In this document: piece by piece, positions 1-41,358 of the stretch
Numbering within the stretch: position 1 is the stretch's first letter
Layout: every line of letters starts with the position of its first letter
Virus record (IMG/VR): IMGVR_UViG_3300025586_000002
Length of the DNA stretch: 41,358 nucleotides
From: a virus
Reading direction: 5' to 3' (one strand)
Position numbers and translations under genes: made by a program
Notes under the pieces: generated by a model
Told to the model about the DNA's origin: nothing
The model's database searches: none
The model's input: only the letters and a program-made list of their open reading frames with translations

Positions 1-127
1 ATCAAACAACACACTTCTTAAAGGTAATACTTTATGTGGACCACACTTCGCATAATGTAAATCACAAATGTGGACCACACATAGACGGGGGGAGGGTAGG
101 GAGAGTTGAACAGGAGAGGGGGATATA
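1..127. repeat. Terminal redundancy: bases 1-127 are identical to 41232-41358 (direct orientation)
   Basis: Read directly: atcaaacaacacacttctta...caggagagggggatata occurs at both window ends. This implies a complete circular or terminally redundant genome with about 41,231 bp of unique sequence. Confidence 0.95.
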
Positions 128-489
128 TATTATGATACTACACATACACTCACTCGTACTACATGCAGACACTTACTAATAAGCTTGTAAGAGGTGCAAT
201 ATAGTTATGACAATCCAGTACCCCTTAGGGGAATAAAGTTATCAACTCTATTAGCCATTGTCTCTTGGTAGAGTTTAAGTACATCACCTATCTCATTGGT
301 CTGGTTAGCCGTTGAGTCGGGAACCCGTGATACCTCAGGTTTTAACCTTACCCCTTTATTTAGAATTCTGCAAACTAGTATGCTTGGCGTTTATTTATAG
401 TGGTCAATTCCAGACTTGTCGCTGTAAGGAAACCTACAAGCCAGTACCCTGCCACTTATTAACTAGTATGTGCTGCACCTCTTGACTAC

Positions 490-25660: not shown

Positions 25661-25906
25661 ATGGTAAATAAACTACAAACTAAATACGAAACTAAATACG
25701 AAGTTATGGCAGAACAATTAAAGAACTTGTGTAAGACGCAAGAGGAGTTGAAAGATAACTTAGAAAAATATATTACAGAAGATAGAGCGTGGAAAGATGC
25801 CTTTATAGAAAAACTTGACAAGAAGTATGCAGGAAAATATATTGAGGTTATATCTATCGGTGCGTTGATTGCTATAATCACACAAATTATTAGTAGTGCT
25901 TTATAA
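25661..25906 (+). CDS. small coiled-coil protein with a C-terminal transmembrane anchor
   Basis: The ATG at 25661 is in frame with the TTG at 25634 used by the ORF track. C-terminal hydrophobic segment VISIGALIAIITQIISSAL. Confidence 0.5.
   Translation: MVNKLQTKYETKYEVMAEQLKNLCKTQEELKDNLEKYITEDRAWKDAFIEKLDKKYAGKYIEVISIGALIAIITQIISSAL
25815..25843 (+). promoter_or_regulatory. sigma70-like promoter embedded in coding sequence, facing the lysis cassette
   Basis: TTGACA (25815-25820), 17-nt spacer, TATATT (25838-25843). The -35 is encoded by Leu-Asp-Lys codons (cttgacaag). Confidence 0.55.
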
Positions 25907-25966
25907 AAAAACTCTCCGCCTTAGTTGGATGTCGGAGAGTGAAAAAACCTAGGAACTTTTATCTTC
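25905..25966 (-). ncRNA. candidate cis-antisense small RNA of about 60 nt
   Basis: It lies downstream of a consensus minus-strand promoter (25973-26000). It ends in an 8-bp hairpin (25911-25918 with 25933-25940) that is followed by a U7 run only on the minus strand; the plus strand has A-runs there. Confidence 0.5.
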
Positions 25967-25972
25967 GTACTA

Positions 25973-26000
25973 ATTATAGCATACCTGCACACTGTGTCAA
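25973..26000 (-). promoter_or_regulatory. consensus sigma70-like promoter on the minus strand inside the plus-strand block
   Basis: Minus strand: TTGACA (26000-25995), 16-nt spacer, TATAAT (25978-25973). A second TTGACA lies 9 nt upstream (26009-26004). Confidence 0.6.
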
Positions 26001-27597: not shown

Positions 27598-27627
27598 AAA
27601 AAACCCCCTTAAACTGGGGGTCTTTTG
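27598..27627. terminator. bidirectional intrinsic terminator at the convergence of the late and early blocks
   Basis: aaaaaa-CCCCC-ttaaact-GGGGG-tctttt. The GC stem is flanked by an A-run and a T-run, so a U-tract follows on either strand. Confidence 0.8.
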
Positions 27628-30662: not shown

Positions 30663-31742
30663 CTATCGATAAATCTTAACCTGTTCTCTTACTGGTTCGG
30701 ATAACTTAATTGGTCTTGTCCAAACCACGCCGTGCTTTTCATTGACCCCAAACAAGAACTGTTCAGCAATTCCCATTCGTCTTAACTTTCCGATAGAGAA
30801 TAAATCTCCCCCAACAAAAGAGCCGTTGGCTATAATGTTGTTAAAGAAACCAAGACGATGATGATGTCCCATAAGCATATAATCTGCTTTTTCAGAGAAC
30901 ATTCCGAGAATTGCTTGGATGTTGTTCTTTTGGCGGTCAGCACCATAATAAGGGTATCCTGCCCAACCTCTAACGGTATCTCCGTGGTCTAGCCAGAAAT
31001 TATGATTGTTAATTGCTACAATCATATGCTGGGCTTCGGTATATTCTATTAGAATATCTTTTAGCCCAAGCAGTCTTTGCTTCATAAAGTGATATGTTAG
31101 TAAGTCAAAGTTCTCTTGTGGAGGGGCGTCTTTTGGATTAGGTGTTAGTCTGGCATGGTTTCCATAAACCCCGTAGAAACGGATTTTAGGGAAGTATCCT
31201 GTTAATATAATAATGAAGTCTGCTAAGATTTCCACTGCTTCAATGACTTGCTTACACACACCGAACTCAATGTTAGACTGCTGGTTTCCACGAAGGATTG
31301 AACCATCTACCATGTCCCCAAGACAAGTAATAACTAACTCATGGGGTTTGTTAGGGTGGTATTCAAGAAACCTTATTATCTTTTCAGCCAAAAGGGATAA
31401 CCTTTTTCTTGCGATACAAGGACTGTATTCAGAAAGTCCTCCTACTTCAACCGCTTTCACGAGTTGTCCGTAGTGCCAATCTGACAGTTCAAGAACCCAA
31501 GACTCTGGTTTCAAATCCCCTTTCCTGATTTGAGGAGGGTCAAGTCTTTTGAGTTTTGGAAGAGTATCTACCACCTGTTGTGCGATTTCTTTGACATTTA
31601 ATATAATGTCTTTCTTTTTCTGTGCAACAGCGTGATTGTGGTTCCAGTGGTATCTAAAACCACTTCTGTCAGAGAAGTCTTTGTTGCACTCTGGACACAT
31701 TACCCTTCCATTAACTTCTTTTGTATTTGGATACATTCTCAT
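30663..31742 (-). CDS. calcineurin-like metallophosphoesterase with an N-terminal classical C2H2 zinc finger
   Basis: Metallophosphoesterase motifs LSDWHYG (DxH), GDMVDG, GNHAR, LDHGD, MGHHHRL. N-terminal CPECNKDFSDRSGFRYHWNHNH fits C-x2-C-x3-F-x5-hydrophobic-x2-H-x4-H. AAAGGAGGT lies 7 nt before the ATG. Confidence 0.7.
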   Translation of the reverse strand: MRMYPNTKEVNGRVMCPECNKDFSDRSGFRYHWNHNHAVAQKKKDIILNVKEIAQQVVDTLPKLKRLDPPQIRKGDLKPESWVLELSDWHYGQLVKAVEVGGLSEYSPCIARKRLSLLAEKIIRFLEYHPNKPHELVITCLGDMVDGSILRGNQQSNIEFGVCKQVIEAVEILADFIIILTGYFPKIRFYGVYGNHARLTPNPKDAPPQENFDLLTYHFMKQRLLGLKDILIEYTEAQHMIVAINNHNFWLDHGDTVRGWAGYPYYGADRQKNNIQAILGMFSEKADYMLMGHHHRLGFFNNIIANGSFVGGDLFSIGKLRRMGIAEQFLFGVNEKHGVVWTRPIKLSEPVREQVKIYR

Positions 31743-34735: not shown

Positions 34736-35066
34736 ATTTTTTTATGTTATTTAATAACTTCTCTTCTTCTTCGTCATAGTTTATGTTCTCGGTTATTGAT
34801 TTTAAAGAACAACGTATTTTTCTAATTTTCTCGGCTTCGTCTAAAACTAAATCTTCAAGGTCTTTATCATATTCAGGAGGGTCTATATTCTCCCACTTGT
34901 TACACTCTTTACACTCAGCACCTTTATCACACTCTTTTTGTTTTCCTGTTGCTTCGCTTTGTGCTATTCTAGTAAATTTATGTAGTTGCATCTCTGCTAT
35001 CTCAGGATTAGTGGTTGATGTTTGATAGATTTCGCCGTATGATTCTACTTTGATTGTAATTCGCAT
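34728..35066 (-). CDS. hypothetical acidic protein
   Basis: ORF overlapping both neighbours. Confidence 0.55.
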   Translation of the reverse strand: MRITIKVESYGEIYQTSTTNPEIAEMQLHKFTRIAQSEATGKQKECDKGAECKECNKWENIDPPEYDKDLEDLVLDEAEKIRKIRCSLKSITENINYDEEEEKLLNNIKKYD

Positions 35067-35188
35067 AGTAGTTCTTTTAGTTGTTTAATAATATCTATCT
35101 CAGAGCCTTTAATAGAAATATCGCCGCCGAGTTCTTCTACTTCTTCTTTTAAATGCTCTATATATTTTGTAGTTTGTAAATTAGACAT
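35045..35188 (-). CDS. hypothetical protein (47 aa, not in the ORF track)
   Basis: The ATG lies 12 nt after the -10 of the promoter at 35201-35228. Hand translation: MSNLQTTKYIEHLKEEVEELGGDISIKGSEIDIIKQLKELLCELQSK. Confidence 0.4.
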   Translation of the reverse strand: MSNLQTTKYIEHLKEEVEELGGDISIKGSEIDIIKQLKELLCELQSK

Positions 35189-35200
35189 ATGTTTATTATA

Positions 35201-35228
35201 AGTATATCAAATCTAAATTATTTGTCAA
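35201..35228 (-). promoter_or_regulatory. sigma70-like early promoter
   Basis: Minus strand: TTGACA (35228-35223), 16-nt spacer, TATACT (35206-35201). The -35 plus stop is encoded as cttgacaaataa (Leu-Asp-Lys-stop). Confidence 0.7.
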
Positions 35229-35508
35229 GCGTTTGTCTTATTGTTAAATTATTAAGTGCATCCATAGTTCCTTCAAACATTTCTGGCATTTCCTTTTTGG
35301 AAAACTTTTCAATCGAGAAGCACCAAAAGATGCTACTCTTTTTTAACCTCATAACATAACCTGCTTTTTCCATTTCTACTAAGAAGAACCTTACACCCTC
35401 TCTGGTTATATTAAGTTCTTTTCCTATAAAAGCATAAGTTGGCGGTTTTCCTTTCTCTAACAGGTGCTTTGTGTATATGTTGTATATTTCTTCGTATCTT
35501 GTTTTCAT
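35218..35508 (-). CDS. winged-helix/HTH DNA-binding protein (candidate transcription regulator)
   Basis: YAFIGKELNITREGVRFFLVEMEKAGYV is an HTH-like segment. Confidence 0.5.
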   Translation of the reverse strand: MKTRYEEIYNIYTKHLLEKGKPPTYAFIGKELNITREGVRFFLVEMEKAGYVMRLKKSSIFWCFSIEKFSKKEMPEMFEGTMDALNNLTIRQTLDK

Positions 35509-35537
35509 ATTATGTTCTATTATTTTCTAACATCTTA

Positions 35538-35565
35538 AGTATATCAAATATGAATTATTTGTCAA
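35538..35565 (-). promoter_or_regulatory. sigma70-like early promoter
   Basis: Minus strand: TTGACA (35565-35560), 16-nt spacer, TATACT (35543-35538). It is a close sequence relative of the promoter at 35201-35228 (both read TTGACAAATAATT, then ATTTGATATACTTA). The -35 is embedded in Leu-Asp-Lys-stop. Confidence 0.7.
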
Positions 35566-35935
35566 GCCCTGCAAGTAGTTTTGTATATTTCTTAATTATT
35601 CTTTCTAATTCGGCGGGAGTATATTTATGCACCTTATAACTTTCTCTTATAAGCCAATCACCTTTTTTAATTCCATATTTCTTTTGTATGTTCCGTAAAT
35701 AGATGTCTCTGTTTCCACTATGATAGAGATTACAACTAACACATTGGCAGTGCAGGTTGTATTCGTTAAAATAAATTGGAGTATGTTTGCCGTGCCTAAA
35801 ATGCCCAGTGTGCATAGTTTTATAATCTTGTTTTTTCTTGCAGGTAAAACAAACGCCGAAATCTCTTCTTCGGATATACTCACTGCACAATTTCCACGCC
35901 TTGTCAAACAGCTTTTGTGTTGGTGTTTTTTTCAT
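35555..35935 (-). CDS. ninG: NinG/Rap-family recombination protein
   Basis: CFTCKKK...HTGHFRHGKHTPIYFNEYNLHCQCVSCNLYHSGNRDIYLRNIQKKYG matches the NinG C-terminal pattern C..C...GH....lRF.e.N...QC..CN...GN...Y. Confidence 0.6.
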   Translation of the reverse strand: MKKTPTQKLFDKAWKLCSEYIRRRDFGVCFTCKKKQDYKTMHTGHFRHGKHTPIYFNEYNLHCQCVSCNLYHSGNRDIYLRNIQKKYGIKKGDWLIRESYKVHKYTPAELERIIKKYTKLLAGLDK

Positions 35936-35972
35936 ATTATTGTTTATAGAAATAGTTTATGCTTGTTCTAAG

Positions 35973-36001
35973 AGTTTATCACGATTAACCTTATTTGTCA
36001 A
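35973..36001 (-). promoter_or_regulatory. sigma70-like early promoter
   Basis: Minus strand: TTGACA (36001-35996), 17-nt spacer, TAAACT (35978-35973). Confidence 0.6.
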
Positions 36002-36192
36002 CCAGCGTATTTATTTCTTCAGACCGCCAACGAACTCTTTCTTACTCATCAAGTCTGTTTGATATTCAAGTCCATCACAGGTAATGGGTTAGTTAATCCC
36101 CCATAAGGTTATTAAATAAATCTCTTTGTTCCCTTGTCTCTGGGAGAGATTATACCTCATTTCCTCAAAAAACTACTCATAAAAATGTGTAG

Positions 36193-36366
36193 AAAAAACG
36201 ACAGCGAAATGGCTCACTGCTACCGCTTCTTTTTTAGGACCTCAACTCTGGCTAGTAATTTAACCCTACTAGCACAGGCATTGCAAGTATCTATTCCTGC
36301 ATAACTAGAATGCTGGGGCTTTTATTTAATGTGGTCAAATAAATATAGAAAGTCTACCCTCCCTGC
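36193..36366 (-). ncRNA. candidate small RNA of about 170 nt, bounded by a promoter and a terminator
   Basis: It starts about 7 nt after the TATAAT at 36376-36371, so the 5' end reads GCAGGGAGGGUAGAC. Internal hairpins: CTAGTA/TACTAG and GCAGG/CCTGT. It ends in a 7-bp stem, CGGUAGC/GCUGUCG (36225-36199), plus U6 (36198-36193). The wobble pairs make this stem stable only on the minus strand. Confidence 0.45.
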
Positions 36367-36370
36367 CACA

Positions 36371-36399
36371 ATTATATCTAGTATAATAAAGTATGATAA
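36371..36399 (-). promoter_or_regulatory. sigma70-like promoter inside the ORF-free locus
   Basis: Minus strand: TTATCA (36399-36394), 17-nt spacer, TATAAT (36376-36371). Confidence 0.5.
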
Positions 36400-36479
36400 A
36401 ACAGAAAACGGCACCCTCCATGACAGTAGATGCCGTTATCTGTGGTCATGGACGATTGTTTAATGTTGTTTTAAAGAAC
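36398..36479 (-). ncRNA. candidate small RNA or attenuator of about 80 nt with pseudoknot potential
   Basis: It lies downstream of the promoter at 36486-36514. An 8-bp stem, ACGGCAUC/GGGUGCCGU (36436-36408), is followed by UUUUCUGUUUU. The loop sequence GUCAUGGA is complementary to the upstream UCCAUGAC (36452-36445). Confidence 0.45.
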
Positions 36480-36485
36480 AAAACC

Positions 36486-36514
36486 AATATATCAGAAACA
36501 TCAAATCTTGTCAA
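36486..36514 (-). promoter_or_regulatory. sigma70-like early promoter
   Basis: Minus strand: TTGACA (36514-36509, inside the codons for TLDKI*), 17-nt spacer, TATATT (36491-36486). Confidence 0.65.
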
Positions 36515-36881
36515 GCGTTTTCGTGTTTTTAGTCTTAATTTGAGAATTCCCAGCGGAATAACTTCCTGCTGAAATGCGGGAATGAGCACAGAACTCGCAT
36601 CGCTTCTTTAACTGACTACTCTTCTCAATAAATACAAGTTCTAATTCACACTCACAGACTTTCCAAACAGGATACCTTCTCTTACAACGGATTACCTTTT
36701 CATAGTATCTTTCCTTTTCTGACAGAGTCTTTGCTTTCCAGTCTAAAGTATTCCCAGTTCCAAAAATTAAAAGAAGTATTCTCGGTGGTATTAAACTCTC
36801 TCCTCGTCTCGGGAAGTAGTATTTATACCCTCCTATCTTACGATACCTTAAAGGATATTTTTTTAGCTCTGGTATTATCAT
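36501..36881 (-). CDS. hypothetical Cys-containing protein
   Basis: An AATAATATG context at 36881 favours this start over the track's 36938. Cys pattern CECE...CEFC. Confidence 0.5.
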   Translation of the reverse strand: MIIPELKKYPLRYRKIGGYKYYFPRRGESLIPPRILLLIFGTGNTLDWKAKTLSEKERYYEKVIRCKRRYPVWKVCECELELVFIEKSSQLKKRCEFCAHSRISAGSYSAGNSQIKTKNTKTLDKI

Positions 36882-36995
36882 ATTATTAACTTTATTAAAC
36901 CTTGAAAACATAATATCAGATAACAGAATAAAAGTCAAATGCTATACCAACCAAAAAGACCATTTGCATGGTCTCCTTGTCGCTAAACTTCGCTT

Positions 36996-37472
36996 CTAAC
37001 GGCTTTTTACCTCTTTATAGCAGTTATTCCACGGCTTCCAACCTCTCGCTTCATATAATGAGAAAGCAAAGGAAATGTTATTAGCTGGAATCCTCAGCCA
37101 ATCTGCTGTCGGTCTGCTGTTAACAAGGTTTCCATAAAGGTTAATCTGAAATAGTCCGTGAGAGTTATCCCTTGTTCTTCCTGTAAGGTTATGAGCATCG
37201 CTATCGCCTGAGCTCTCACAGAGCATAATCGCATAAGCAATGTCTGTGTTCCAATCATATTGGGCTATTATATTATAGTAAGCGTCTATTATGTGGTCCA
37301 CATTTTTATTGCCTAGCGTTTGGCTTTTAATAAAATAAGGCGGACTTACTGCGTAGACATACATATCACTTTCATTGTAGTAGTTTATAGGTTCTTCGTC
37401 CTCGCTAAACACAGTCCTATAAAGCAAAACTACTGAGATTAAAAGAAAGGATAATAAGATTATTTTTTTCAT
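36996..37472 (-). CDS. secreted or signal-anchored lysozyme-like transglycosylase
   Basis: N-terminal MKKIILLSFLLISVVLLY. The catalytic-region pattern AIMLCESSGDSDAHN...SHGLFQIN is typical of transglycosylase-like/SLT domains. Confidence 0.6.
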   Translation of the reverse strand: MKKIILLSFLLISVVLLYRTVFSEDEEPINYYNESDMYVYAVSPPYFIKSQTLGNKNVDHIIDAYYNIIAQYDWNTDIAYAIMLCESSGDSDAHNLTGRTRDNSHGLFQINLYGNLVNSRPTADWLRIPANNISFAFSLYEARGWKPWNNCYKEVKSR

Positions 37473-37531
37473 AGTTTGCCACTCTTGGCTTGCAAGTCTG
37501 AAAGTTTATCTGTGGTGGAACTTCTAAAAAT

Positions 37532-37607
37532 AATTAGTTAATTAGTTAGTAAATTGACCTGTTCAATAAATTAAATAGTTAGTTAATAAATATAGTTAGT
37601 TAATAAA
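37532..37607. repeat. AT-rich tandem and dispersed TAGTTAGTTAA repeats
   Basis: atagttagttaataaa is identical at 37575-37590 and 37592-37607. Related ttagttaattagttagt lies at about 37533-37550. Confidence 0.8.
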
Positions 37608-37641
37608 AAAGGACTCAAAAAAGTTCAAGCCCTGTTTTTTC

Positions 37642-37670
37642 ATTTTAGCAAAACTATTAGAATATGTCAA
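37642..37670 (-). promoter_or_regulatory. sigma70-like early promoter
   Basis: Minus strand: TTGACA (37670-37665), 17-nt spacer, TAAAAT (37647-37642). Confidence 0.65.
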
Positions 37671-39115: not shown

Positions 39116-39155
39116 AGTTTAATTAACTTTACATTCGACCTTTATTTATAACTTA

Positions 39156-40359: not shown

Positions 40360-40402
40360 TCTATTAAACTATTGTTTATAATGTCCGACCTTTACTACTT
40401 TA

Positions 40403-40639: not shown

Positions 40640-40693
40640 AGTTTTATACTTAGTTTTATGTTGCTTTATATTCGACCTTTTGCTTATACTAGA

Positions 40694-41055: not shown

Positions 41056-41310
41056 TGTGAACCACATATTAAACAATAGACAATATAGAAGAGAAAGACT
41101 AAGCTAAGAAAGATATTATTCTATTAAAAGCAATAGATAGTAATGTGAACCACATAAATGAATGTAAATGTAGTCTTAATGTATCTTGTATTAGCATTTT
41201 GTCTAACCCACAACCACATACTTCGCATAACATCAAACAACACACTTCTTAAAGGTAATACTTTATGTGGACCACACTTCGCATAATGTAAATCACAAAT
41301 GTGGACCACA
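41056..41310. repeat. array of TGTGRACCACA iterons (partial inverted repeats)
   Basis: tgtgaaccaca at 41056-41066 and 41144-41154. tgtggaccaca at 41266-41276 and 41300-41310 (the same as 35-45 and 69-79). A degenerate copy, cacaaccacat, lies near 41208. The exact reverse-complement copy tgtggtccaca is at 37292-37302. Confidence 0.75.
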
Positions 41311-41358
41311 CATAGACGGGGGGAGGGTAGGGAGAGTTGAACAGGAGAGGGGGATATA
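41232..41358. repeat. Terminal redundancy: identical to 1-127
   Basis: See the feature at 1-127. Confidence 0.95.

What the first reader, a model, noticed from the sequence alone, without database searches (positions are those of the whole stretch)
36063..36500. 440-nt ORF-free locus containing two minus-strand units each bounded by a promoter and a terminator
This locus lies between two early genes. Unit 1: the promoter at 36486-36514, then about 80 nt ending in an 8-bp GC-rich stem plus a U-tract. The stem's loop (GUCAUGGA) is complementary to an upstream 8-mer (UCCAUGAC), so it could form an H-type pseudoknot or an attenuator switch. Unit 2: the promoter at 36371-36399 (TTATCA-N17-TATAAT), then about 170 nt beginning GCAGGGAGGGUAGAC, with at least two clean hairpins, ending in a 7-bp stem plus U6 (36193-36225). 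Both terminator stems rely on G:U pairs that become A-C mismatches on the plus strand, which argues for minus-strand function. The remaining 130 nt (36063-36190) contain further 5-7-bp hairpins before the next promoter. Dedicating this much space to non-coding units in a dense phage genome suggests regulatory or effector RNAs.
Basis: partly seen in the sequence, partly recalled or inferred. Interest (0 to 1): 0.65.

Follow-up and report, generated by a model that had tools for sequence, protein, structure and literature searches.

The report
Orphan phage non-coding locus, masked terminator
A 565-base gene-free stretch in a complete 41-kb phage genome from saline-lake metagenomes most likely makes non-coding RNA from one strong promoter, and its first terminator is predicted to be hidden by a competing hairpin; this is a known kind of phage feature, and no relatives exist to test it.

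Summary

**Unit 1 is well supported.**
- Its promoter (36514-36486) belongs to this phage's own strong promoter family.
- The hairpin plus U-tract that follows is the best in the whole genome.
- The 8-nt complement between the terminator loop and upstream sequence is rare by chance (about 0.5% of shuffles).
- A full H-type pseudoknot looks sterically implausible. The two 8-mers instead form a competing hairpin.
- That hairpin dominates the predicted ensemble (P 0.97-0.98) at the moment termination would be decided. Eight other terminator candidates in this genome form freely (P about 0.7-1.0).

**Unit 2 is weak.**
- Its promoter (10/12, not a family member) and terminator (-8.9 kcal/mol, U6) are each at chance level.
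- Its fold is not better than shuffles (z -1.5).
- The last 190 nt show nothing (z -0.64).

**Other negatives.** There is no plausible ORF, no Rfam hit and no tRNA. The only copies found are 100% identical, so covariation cannot be tested. Relatives pack NinG against the preceding gene, so the locus is lineage-specific.

**Best reading.** This is one non-coding transcription unit with a conditional terminator, giving an RNA of about 80 nt or about 285 nt. It would be a new member of a known kind.

The parts
36486..36514 (-). Strong sigma-70-type promoter (TTGACA-17-TATATT with TG). Its -35 lies inside the last codons of the upstream orphan gene. Predicted transcription start is about 36479.
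   Evidence: 11/12 plus TG. One search shows it aligns with the phage's own promoter family, including the shared 'AAACGCTTGACAA' also seen at 35222-35234.
36445..36456 (-). 5' arm of the competing (antiterminator) hairpin: AUC-G-UCCAUGAC.
   Evidence: inverted repeat I2.
36413..36424 (-). 3' arm of the competing hairpin: GUCAUGGA-G-GGU. It covers the terminator loop and the first 3 nt of the terminator's 3' arm.
   Evidence: Shuffle test (p about 0.003-0.006).
36397..36436 (-). Conditional intrinsic terminator T1: stem ACGGCAUC (36436-36429) / GGUGCCGU (36415-36408), 13-nt loop, U-tract UUUUCUGUUUU (36407-36397).
   Evidence: best in the genome, -15.3 kcal/mol. (z -3.15). (stem probability 0.02 or less before the U-tract is free; 0.81-0.90 in the released 81-84-nt RNA).
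36371..36399 (-). Possible second promoter, TTATCA-17-TATAAT. Its -35 abuts the T1 U-tract. Weak evidence.
   Evidence: 10/12, no TG. (not a family member).
36227..36366 (-). Body of 'Unit 2' RNA, beginning GGCAGGGAGGGUAGAC. It has an AU-only hairpin, a 6-bp hairpin and an 8-bp hairpin (GCUAGUAG/UUACUAGC).
   Evidence: z -1.5 and -0.77, not significant. GC is 0.36-0.45, against 0.20-0.29 in the other spacers sampled in 35000-37600.
36193..36226 (-). Second terminator T2: hairpin GCGGUAGCAGUGAGCCAUUUCGCUGUCGU, then U6, preceded by an A-tract.
   Evidence: -8.9 kcal/mol. (stem forms with P about 0.7-0.8 at the decision point).
36002..36192 (-). Remaining non-coding spacer ('Unit 3'). No promoter, terminator or significant fold was found.
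   Evidence: z -0.64..
35973..36001 (-). Family promoter that serves NinG on its own (TTGACA-17-TAAACT with TG).

Best explanation
The locus is a lineage-specific, non-coding transcription unit. It sits in the slot between two minus-strand genes of a complete circular genome of about 41.2 kb.

**Proposed mechanism**
- The strong family promoter at 36514-36486 fires into about 80 nt that can fold in two mutually exclusive ways.
- One fold is a long hairpin built on UCCAUGAC:GUCAUGGA. The other is the intrinsic terminator T1.
- The competing hairpin is transcribed first. It stays more stable until the U-tract leaves the polymerase.
- T1 is therefore a conditional terminator. By default, transcription is predicted to run on to T2 (36226-36193) and give an RNA of about 285 nt.
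- If something occupies the 5' arm (a protein or an RNA), T1 forms and an RNA of about 80 nt is released.
- The weak promoter at 36399-36371 may add separate expression of the distal 174 nt.
- NinG is served by its own promoter at 36001.

**What is shown and what is inferred**
- Shown by computation: the promoter's family membership, the rank of the terminator, the statistical rarity of the alternative fold, the fact that only T1 is masked, and the absence of ORFs and homologs.
- Inferred: that the RNAs are made, that the switch operates, and what the RNAs do. Most likely they regulate phage or host expression early in infection.
For: **Promoter**
- It belongs to a family of about 10 co-oriented promoters, most of which sit 25-60 nt upstream of a gene start.
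- In this block, promoters are embedded in the 3' end of the preceding gene (35565 in NinG, 35228 in the HTH gene). The promoter at 36514 therefore occupies a normal 'gene slot' whose product has no ORF.

**Terminator T1 and the competing fold**
- T1 is the best hairpin plus U-tract in the genome.
- Two overlapping inverted repeats are present (I1 and I2).
- Folding successive prefixes gives the competing hairpin from 65 to 77 nt (-14 to -19 kcal/mol). The terminator appears only at 80 nt or more.
- P(competing stem) is 0.97-0.98 at 77 nt, from 4 to 37 C.
- In the control, 8 other terminator candidates form with P 0.7-1.0 in the same test, while T1 is at 0.02 or less.
- Shuffles reach the native prefix energy in 0.3% of cases, and an 8-nt complement in 0.46%.

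**Longer RNA and sequence links**
- The full 288-nt RNA folds with z -2.97.
- A 13-mer in Unit 1's switch (UGUCAUGGAGGGU) recurs with 2 mismatches at the 5' end of Unit 2. It is the only match with 2 or fewer mismatches in the genome.
- The 8-mer UGACCACA is shared by both units.

**Composition and coding**
- GC in the locus is gene-like rather than spacer-like.
- No ORF, coding signal or protein-family hit was found.

**Lineage and precedent**
- In about 50 related loci, NinG is packed against its upstream gene. Gaps are mostly under 60 nt and at most 237 nt.
- Short RNAs from promoter-proximal terminators are documented in phages (PMC10914365).
Against: - There is no transcript evidence of any kind.
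- There is no diverged homolog, so conservation and covariation cannot be tested.
- The masking argument rests on equilibrium nearest-neighbour folding. In the competing fold, the 5' arm of T1 partly sits in an apical loop, where it could nucleate the terminator by strand displacement. Real termination efficiency could therefore be high.
- The complementarity was noticed after the fact, so the p-values of about 0.005 are optimistic.
- Unit 2's promoter, terminator and fold are at chance level.
- No target complementarity above chance was found in the phage genome.
- The host is unknown, and most genes lack a Shine-Dalgarno sequence. Use of sigma-70-type promoters is inferred from the motif family only.
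Confidence: 0.45

Rival explanations
1. There are two autonomous small RNA genes of about 80 nt and about 174 nt. Each has its own promoter and an efficient terminator, and each acts in trans by base pairing.
For: - Both promoter-terminator pairs exist and are co-oriented.
- Terminators are rare between protein genes in this block, so defined 3' ends look deliberate.
- In the released 81-84-nt RNA the terminator fold is favoured (P 0.81-0.90).
- The 5' 45 nt is then largely unpaired, as for a seed region.
- The genome has other strong-promoter, short-RNA, terminator units at 37670 to 37610 and at 26000 to 25911.
Against: - T1 is predicted to be masked at the decision point.
- Promoter 2 is not a family member and is at chance frequency.
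- Unit 2's fold is not significant.
- No target complementarity beyond chance 11-13-mers was found.
Confidence: 0.25
2. The locus is a passive boundary. T1 and T2 are tandem terminators that end the upstream orphan-gene operon and insulate NinG. The promoter at 36514 is just an extra promoter. The rest is non-functional filler left by recombination between modules.
For: - A recombination boundary lies at 36542, just upstream of the promoter. The variants L006 and L008 differ upstream of it and are identical downstream.
- The locus is absent from all relatives.
- Unit 2 and the 190-nt remainder fold at chance.
- NinG has its own promoter.
Against: - A full-strength family promoter aimed directly at tandem terminators is hard to explain as filler.
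- The rare alternative fold argues against filler.
- So do the two motifs repeated between Unit 1 and Unit 2.
- GC is gene-like, unlike the other spacers.
Confidence: 0.2
3. The function is at the DNA level. The overlapping inverted repeats and the TGTGGTCA half-sites would be binding sites (operators) for a phage regulator that controls the 36514 or 36399 promoters.
For: - TGTGGTY is over-represented in the genome (19 against 8.3 expected).
- It occurs twice in this locus, and in full palindromes TGTGGTYCACA in the large control region at 41056-41310.
- Inverted repeat I2 has 15-nt arms.
Against: - Only half-sites are present here, not the palindrome.
- GTCATGGA occurs nowhere else.
- The G:U pairs and U-tracts point to function at the RNA level on the minus strand.
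Confidence: 0.05
4. The locus holds an overlooked small protein gene or a decayed gene.
For: - The + strand frame 0 has only 5 stops in 590 nt.
- A gene caller called a 50-aa ORF at 36420-36572 (+) in three of the four identical contigs.
Against: - No ORF has a ribosome-binding context. GGAGG motifs are followed by no start codon at a usable spacing.
- No PHROG hits were found.
- tblastn with 2927 ORFs from related loci gave nothing significant after correcting for the number of queries.
- The periodic Markov score is lower here than in the flanking genes.
- No + strand promoter was found in the locus.
Confidence: 0.04

Closest known systems
Phage short RNAs made by promoter-proximal (5'UTR) termination, e.g. 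phiKZ T102 (~71 nt) and TU237 (141 nt); Putzeys et al. 2024, PMC10914365
   Same: - A promoter is followed within 250 nt by a terminator.
- There is no ORF with a ribosome-binding site.
- Both short and read-through isoforms are expected.
   Different: - Those RNAs were mapped experimentally and lie in the 5'UTR of a gene. This one is only predicted.
- Here the next gene is about 465 nt further on and has its own promoter.
- There is no sequence relation.
Terminator/antiterminator attenuators (B. subtilis trp-TRAP, pyr-PyrR; antisense-RNA attenuation in plasmids pT181/pIP501). From my own knowledge.
   Same: - Two mutually exclusive hairpins share nucleotides with an intrinsic terminator just downstream of a promoter.
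- Termination would require a factor that occupies the 5' arm of the antiterminator.
   Different: - No sensor element, (G/U)AG repeats, PyrR loop or antisense promoter was found.
- The downstream 'cargo' is non-coding.
Satellite phage P4 immunity (CI RNA; seqB pairs with seqA/seqC of nascent leader transcripts and causes termination). From my own knowledge.
   Same: - A short RNA from the leader of an early transcript carries a sequence complementary to the same leader.
- Pairing in trans could decide termination.
   Different: - P4 CI RNA is produced by processing and has two target sites.
- There is no sequence or Rfam relation.
- Trans action here is a hypothesis only.
Lambda PR'-6S RNA-tR' module read through by Q. 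From my own knowledge.
   Same: A strong promoter lies directly after a small zinc-motif gene, followed by a short non-coding transcript and a terminator.
   Different: - The upstream protein matches no Pfam family, so no Q family.
- No TAnnnT pause element lies in the first 25 nt (sequence).
- The downstream genes are recombination-type genes with their own promoters, not late genes.
Type-I 3'UTR small RNAs with an internal promoter (DapZ, MicL). From my own knowledge.
   Same: - The promoter -35 lies inside the end of the upstream coding sequence.
- The RNA would share the first terminator downstream of that gene.
   Different: - Hfq dependence and a conserved seed cannot be assessed.
- The host is unknown.

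Membership tests
Any Rfam family (riboswitches, known phage RNAs such as pRNA, CRISPR repeats, ribozymes) | Covariance-model score at or above the family's gathering threshold | tested here: not met
   There were 0 hits over the whole window at the gathering threshold. On 35800-36700 only chance hits appeared, with E of 0.2 or more and far below threshold. No tRNA or tmRNA was found.
Phage promoter-proximal-termination ncRNA (as in PMC10914365) | A transcription start followed by a terminator within about 250 nt, with no ORF of 10 aa or more preceded by a Shine-Dalgarno sequence | tested here: met
   By prediction only. The promoter at 36514 is followed by T1 at about 80 nt and T2 at about 285 nt. 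No SD-preceded ORF is present.
Phage promoter-proximal-termination ncRNA (as in PMC10914365) | Experimentally mapped 5' and 3' ends, or a discrete RNA species | not testable with these tools
   No transcriptome data are available for this phage.
Terminator/antiterminator attenuator | An intrinsic terminator plus an alternative hairpin that shares nucleotides with it and forms first | tested here: met
   Shuffle control.
Terminator/antiterminator attenuator | An identifiable sensor: ligand aptamer, protein-binding repeats, leader peptide or antisense RNA | tested here: not met
   - No Rfam aptamer was found.
- There is no leader ORF.
- There is no + strand promoter in the locus.
- The genome holds no second sequence complementary to the 5' arm, other than Unit 1's own loop.
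Lambda-type Q antitermination module | A Q-family protein encoded immediately upstream | tested here: not met
   - The upstream 126-aa protein has no Pfam or PHROG hit.
- It has no homolog among 5.8 billion proteins.
- PDB sequence hits are only weak TBP matches with E of 0.08 or more.
- The structure model is unusable (pLDDT 37).
Lambda-type Q antitermination module | Late (lysis or structural) genes downstream that depend on read-through | tested here: not met
   Downstream lie NinG, an HTH protein and ERF, with their own family promoters. The structural genes are on the other strand.
P4-type RNA immunity / antisense-driven attenuation | A stable short RNA whose exposed sequence pairs with the nascent leader and forces termination | tested here: inconclusive
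   - In the released RNA the 8-mer sits in a 13-nt loop that costs 1.7 kcal/mol to open.
- The target in a 56-nt nascent RNA costs 1.6 kcal/mol to open.
- The duplex is worth -11 to -16.4 kcal/mol.
- The interaction is therefore thermodynamically feasible. No experiment and no conservation support it.
Base-pairing trans-acting sRNA | A conserved seed with complementary targets | tested here: inconclusive
   No complementarity above chance was found within the phage genome (11-13-mers only). The host genome is unknown and there are no homologs.

The most novel reading that the evidence does not exclude
Unit 1 could be a self-reinforcing RNA switch. By default the competing hairpin lets transcription from the strong 36514 promoter read through T1. 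Any terminated 80-nt RNA refolds into the terminator form and exposes GUCAUGGA in its 13-nt loop. That loop then pairs in trans with UCCAUGAC on nascent transcripts and blocks the competing hairpin, which forces further termination. The result would be positive feedback that flips the locus from the 285-nt product to the 80-nt product as infection proceeds. This resembles P4 CI RNA logic, but the effector would be the attenuated transcript itself and no processing would be needed.
Probability: 0.06. Interest if true: 0.75.

Novelty: new member of a known kind. Interest (0 to 1): 0.36.

Why it matters
If the RNAs are real, this uncultivated phage from saline-lake metagenomes gives a strong early promoter slot to a non-coding product with a built-in terminator/antiterminator choice. 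That would add a clean, small and experimentally tractable example to the growing list of phage RNAs made by promoter-proximal termination. Their functions are almost entirely unknown.

The genome carries at least two more units with a strong promoter, a short RNA and a terminator. Such RNAs may therefore be a general part of this phage's programme.

The practical value is limited for now. The host is unknown and there are no relatives for comparative analysis.

Tried and rejected
**Homolog searches: all negative, or only identical copies**
- blastn against 50,697 phage records found nothing.
- The same phage turned up in four metagenome contigs. The locus is 100% identical in all, and there are no SNPs downstream of 36542.
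- NinG relatives of up to 72% identity were fetched from Logan/ENA, from JGI metagenomes (80 loci) and from IMG/VR (80 loci, 1.14 Mb).
- nhmmer and blastn of the locus against these gave nothing.
- The upstream orphan protein has no homolog.
- Exact and gapped pattern scans of IMG/VR gave 0 hits, or 10 chance hits that do not resemble Unit 1.
- Scans of 185,579 genomes gave 0 hits.

**Other tests**
- Pseudogene test: not significant.
- Recoded stop codons: rejected, because TAA lies in every frame and all three stops are used by genes.
- Periodic Markov coding score: it discriminates poorly for the small early genes, and is only weakly against coding here.
- Hammerhead-like 'CUUGAUGAG...GAAAG' at about 36050: rejected, with no stem II and no Rfam hit.
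- snoR124 and other sub-threshold Rfam hits: chance.
- phi29 pRNA (also 174 nt): rejected, with no Rfam hit and a different phage type that carries a terminase.
- Structure prediction of the orphan protein, to test a Q-like role: pLDDT 37 and unusable, so no fold search was run.
- RNA-RNA duplex screens between the short units: no outliers.
- H-type pseudoknot: rejected on geometry, because a 1-nt loop cannot cross 8 bp.

Full report
**Context**

The window is a complete circular phage genome of about 41.2 kb. Its first ~127 bases recur at 41232-41358.
- Structural and packaging genes, including a large terminase, run on the + strand from about 850 to 27217.
- A block of small genes runs on the - strand from about 39100 down to 27652. 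It includes ERF, a PD-(D/E)XK nuclease, NinG, an HTH protein and an SLT-type lysozyme-like protein.
- The same phage occurs almost clonally in several metagenomes (JGI 3300005932, ENA ERZ273159xx/ERZ273156xx, SRR5581655).
- It has no relative in INPHARED.

**The observation**

The gene-free stretch is 565 nt, not 440. It runs from the stop codon of a 126-aa orphan CxxC...CxxC gene (36501-36881) to the NinG start at 35935. Evidence against coding:
- No ORF reaches 60 aa.
- TAA stops lie in every frame, and all three stop codons are used by genes, so recoding cannot open a frame.
- The small ORFs have no ribosome-binding context and no PHROG hit.
- tblastn with 2927 ORFs from related loci shows no decayed gene.
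- A periodic Markov score is lower here than in the flanking genes, although that model is weak for small early genes.

GC content is 0.31-0.45, like the genes. The other spacers sampled in 35000-37600 are at 0.20-0.29.

**Unit 1**

The promoter at 36514-36486 (TTGACA-17-TATATT with TG, 11/12) belongs to a clear family of minus-strand promoters of the form 'gcTTGACAa...TGaTAtACT'.
- Most family members sit 25-60 nt upstream of a start codon.
- They are often embedded in the 3' end of the preceding gene, as this one is.

The hairpin ACGGCAUC/GGUGCCGU plus UUUUCUGUUUU is the top hit of a genome-wide hairpin plus U-tract scan, at -15.3 kcal/mol. The 81-nt RNA folds with z -3.15.

UCCAUGAC and its complement GUCAUGGA are a single pair: one search finds only these two matches when the 8-mer is searched on both strands. 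They lie upstream of the stem and in its 13-nt loop. With the stems held fixed and the rest shuffled:
- A complement of 8 nt or more arose in 23 of 5000 trials.
- A prefix as stable as the native one arose in 0.3% of trials.

These values are optimistic, because the feature was noticed after the fact.

**Pseudoknot or switch**

A full H-type pseudoknot would leave a single G to cross an 8-bp helix. I regard that as sterically implausible (inference).

The two 8-mers instead seed a long hairpin, AUC-G-UCCAUGAC...GUCAUGGA-G-GGU, with an inner AGAU/AUCU stem. It overlaps both arms of the terminator (inverted repeats I1 and I2).
- Folding successive prefixes gives this competing hairpin from 65 to 77 nt. 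The terminator appears only once the U-tract is available for pairing.
- At 77 nt the competing stem has probability 0.97-0.98 from 4 to 37 C. In the released 81-84-nt RNA the terminator fold has 0.81-0.90.
- As a control I applied the same decision-point test to eight other terminator candidates in this genome. All form with probability about 0.7-1.0, while T1 is at 0.02 or less.

T1 is therefore predicted to be a conditional terminator. One caveat applies. In the competing fold, part of T1's 5' arm (AACGGC) lies in an apical loop. From there it could nucleate the terminator by strand displacement, so real termination efficiency is uncertain.

**Unit 2 and the remainder**

- TTATCA-17-TATAAT (36399-36371) matches 10/12, has no TG and is not a family member. 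Sites of that quality occur about 42 times on the two strands.
- T2 (36226-36198 plus U6) scores -8.9 kcal/mol and ranks about 27th of 47 candidates. It does have a perfect U6, an upstream A-tract and G:U pairs that make it minus-strand specific.
- The 174-nt RNA folds with z -1.5, and its body with z -0.77.
- The last 190 nt folds with z -0.64 and has no signals.
- The full 288-nt RNA from 36480 to 36193 folds with z -2.97.

Two short motifs link the units.
- UGUCAUGGAGGGU, in the switch, recurs as UGGCAGGGAGGGU at the 5' end of Unit 2. It is the only match with 2 or fewer mismatches in the genome.
- UGACCACA occurs in both units.

**Known families and relatives**

No Rfam family matches, and there is no tRNA or tmRNA. 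Homolog searches gave the following:
- The four contigs carrying the locus are 100% identical across it. Two of them differ only upstream of 36542, which marks a recombination boundary just before the promoter.
- The orphan upstream protein has no homolog among 5.8 billion proteins.
- NinG relatives reach at most 72% identity. About 175 loci carrying them were fetched.
- In the ~50 of these loci I checked, NinG lies tight against the preceding gene. None of the fetched loci shows similarity to the locus.
- Pattern scans of IMG/VR and of 185,579 genomes found nothing relevant.

The locus is therefore lineage-specific, and covariation cannot be tested.

**Interpretation**

My best reading (confidence about 0.45) is a single non-coding unit. 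It is driven by the 36514 promoter, and its first 80 nt act as a terminator/antiterminator switch. The output would be either an RNA of about 80 nt or, probably by default, one of about 285 nt ending at T2. The weak second promoter may contribute as well.

The rivals are:
- a passive tandem-terminator boundary with recombination filler (0.2);
- DNA-level operator sites (0.05);
- a hidden small ORF (0.04).

A lambda Q-type module was considered and rejected.
- The upstream protein matches no Pfam family, so no Q family.
- Its structure model is unusable (pLDDT 37).
- No pause element is present.
- The downstream genes are not late genes and have their own promoters.

**Comparison with the literature**

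Experimental maps of Pseudomonas phages show that terminators placed just after promoters commonly yield abundant short RNAs. Examples are phiKZ T102 (~71 nt) and TU237 (141 nt). That study found 42 such sites and proposed 29 ncRNA candidates (PMC10914365).

The present locus fits that kind. It differs in having an explicit competing hairpin and a non-coding 'cargo'.

The most novel reading still open is a P4-CI-like feedback, in which the terminated RNA's loop pairs with nascent transcripts. The energetics allow it: opening costs are 1.6-1.7 kcal/mol against a duplex worth -11 to -16 kcal/mol. Nothing else supports it.

**Verdict**

This is a real and partly well-supported non-coding locus. 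Unit 1 is credible and has an interesting predicted switch. Unit 2 is weak as an independent gene. It is a new member of a known kind, of moderate interest, and cannot be verified without transcript data or relatives.

Noticed in passing
window 25904-26000 (- strand): This is the best promoter in the genome (TTGACA-16-TATAAT, 12/12 with TG and a tandem -35). After about 65 nt it is followed by a strong terminator (25940-25911, -12.2 kcal/mol, U7). It points against the + strand late-gene block, so it is a further candidate short RNA, or an antisense unit if read through.
   Followed up: partly
window 37473-37670 (- strand): The family promoter at 37670-37642 is followed at about +10 by a 10-bp hairpin plus U6 (37633-37610). 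After that comes a 140-nt AT-rich leader with clustered TTAACTAAC-like repeats (37533-37603), and then the SLT lysozyme-like gene. The leader shares the exact 11-mer ACCACAGATAA (37516-37506) with Unit 1 (36446-36436).
   Followed up: partly
window 41056-41310 (the two boxes at 41266 and 41300 lie in the terminal overlap and recur at 35 and 69), plus 37292-37302: The palindromic box TGTGGTYCACA occurs four times in the large non-coding region next to the divergent promoters 517(-)/635(+), and once inside the SLT gene. That is 13 matches against 1.1 expected. It looks like an operator or origin array. Half-sites TGTGGTCA occur twice in the studied locus.
   Followed up: partly
window 39134-39143, 40384-40393, 40671-40680 (- strand): A conserved AAAGGTCG(A/G)A motif lies about 15-20 nt downstream of the -10 of three family promoters (39183, 40430, 40722). 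There are 4 matches against 0.15 expected. It may be a shared leader or operator element.
   Followed up: no
window 1-128 and 41231-41358: The first ~127 bases are repeated exactly at the end of the window. The sequence is therefore a circularly closed assembly of about 41,231 bp.
   Followed up: yes
window 36501-36881 (- strand): This 126-aa protein has two CxxC motifs and no homolog among 5.8 billion proteins. Only weak sequence matches to TATA-box-binding proteins were found (E 0.08-0.3). The single-sequence structure model is unusable. Population variants differ in its last 40 codons, up to a recombination boundary at 36542.
   Followed up: partly
whole window, gene starts: Most genes lack a Shine-Dalgarno sequence and start after A/T-rich 'AATAAT'. 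Three neighbouring genes (starts at 31742, 32405 and 32816, - strand) have a perfect GGAGG. The host is unknown, and NinG-based scans of 185,579 genomes found no prophage relative.
   Followed up: partly
window 27603-27621: A G+C-rich hairpin with U-tracts on both strands sits at the point where the + and - gene blocks converge. It is a likely bidirectional terminator.
   Followed up: no
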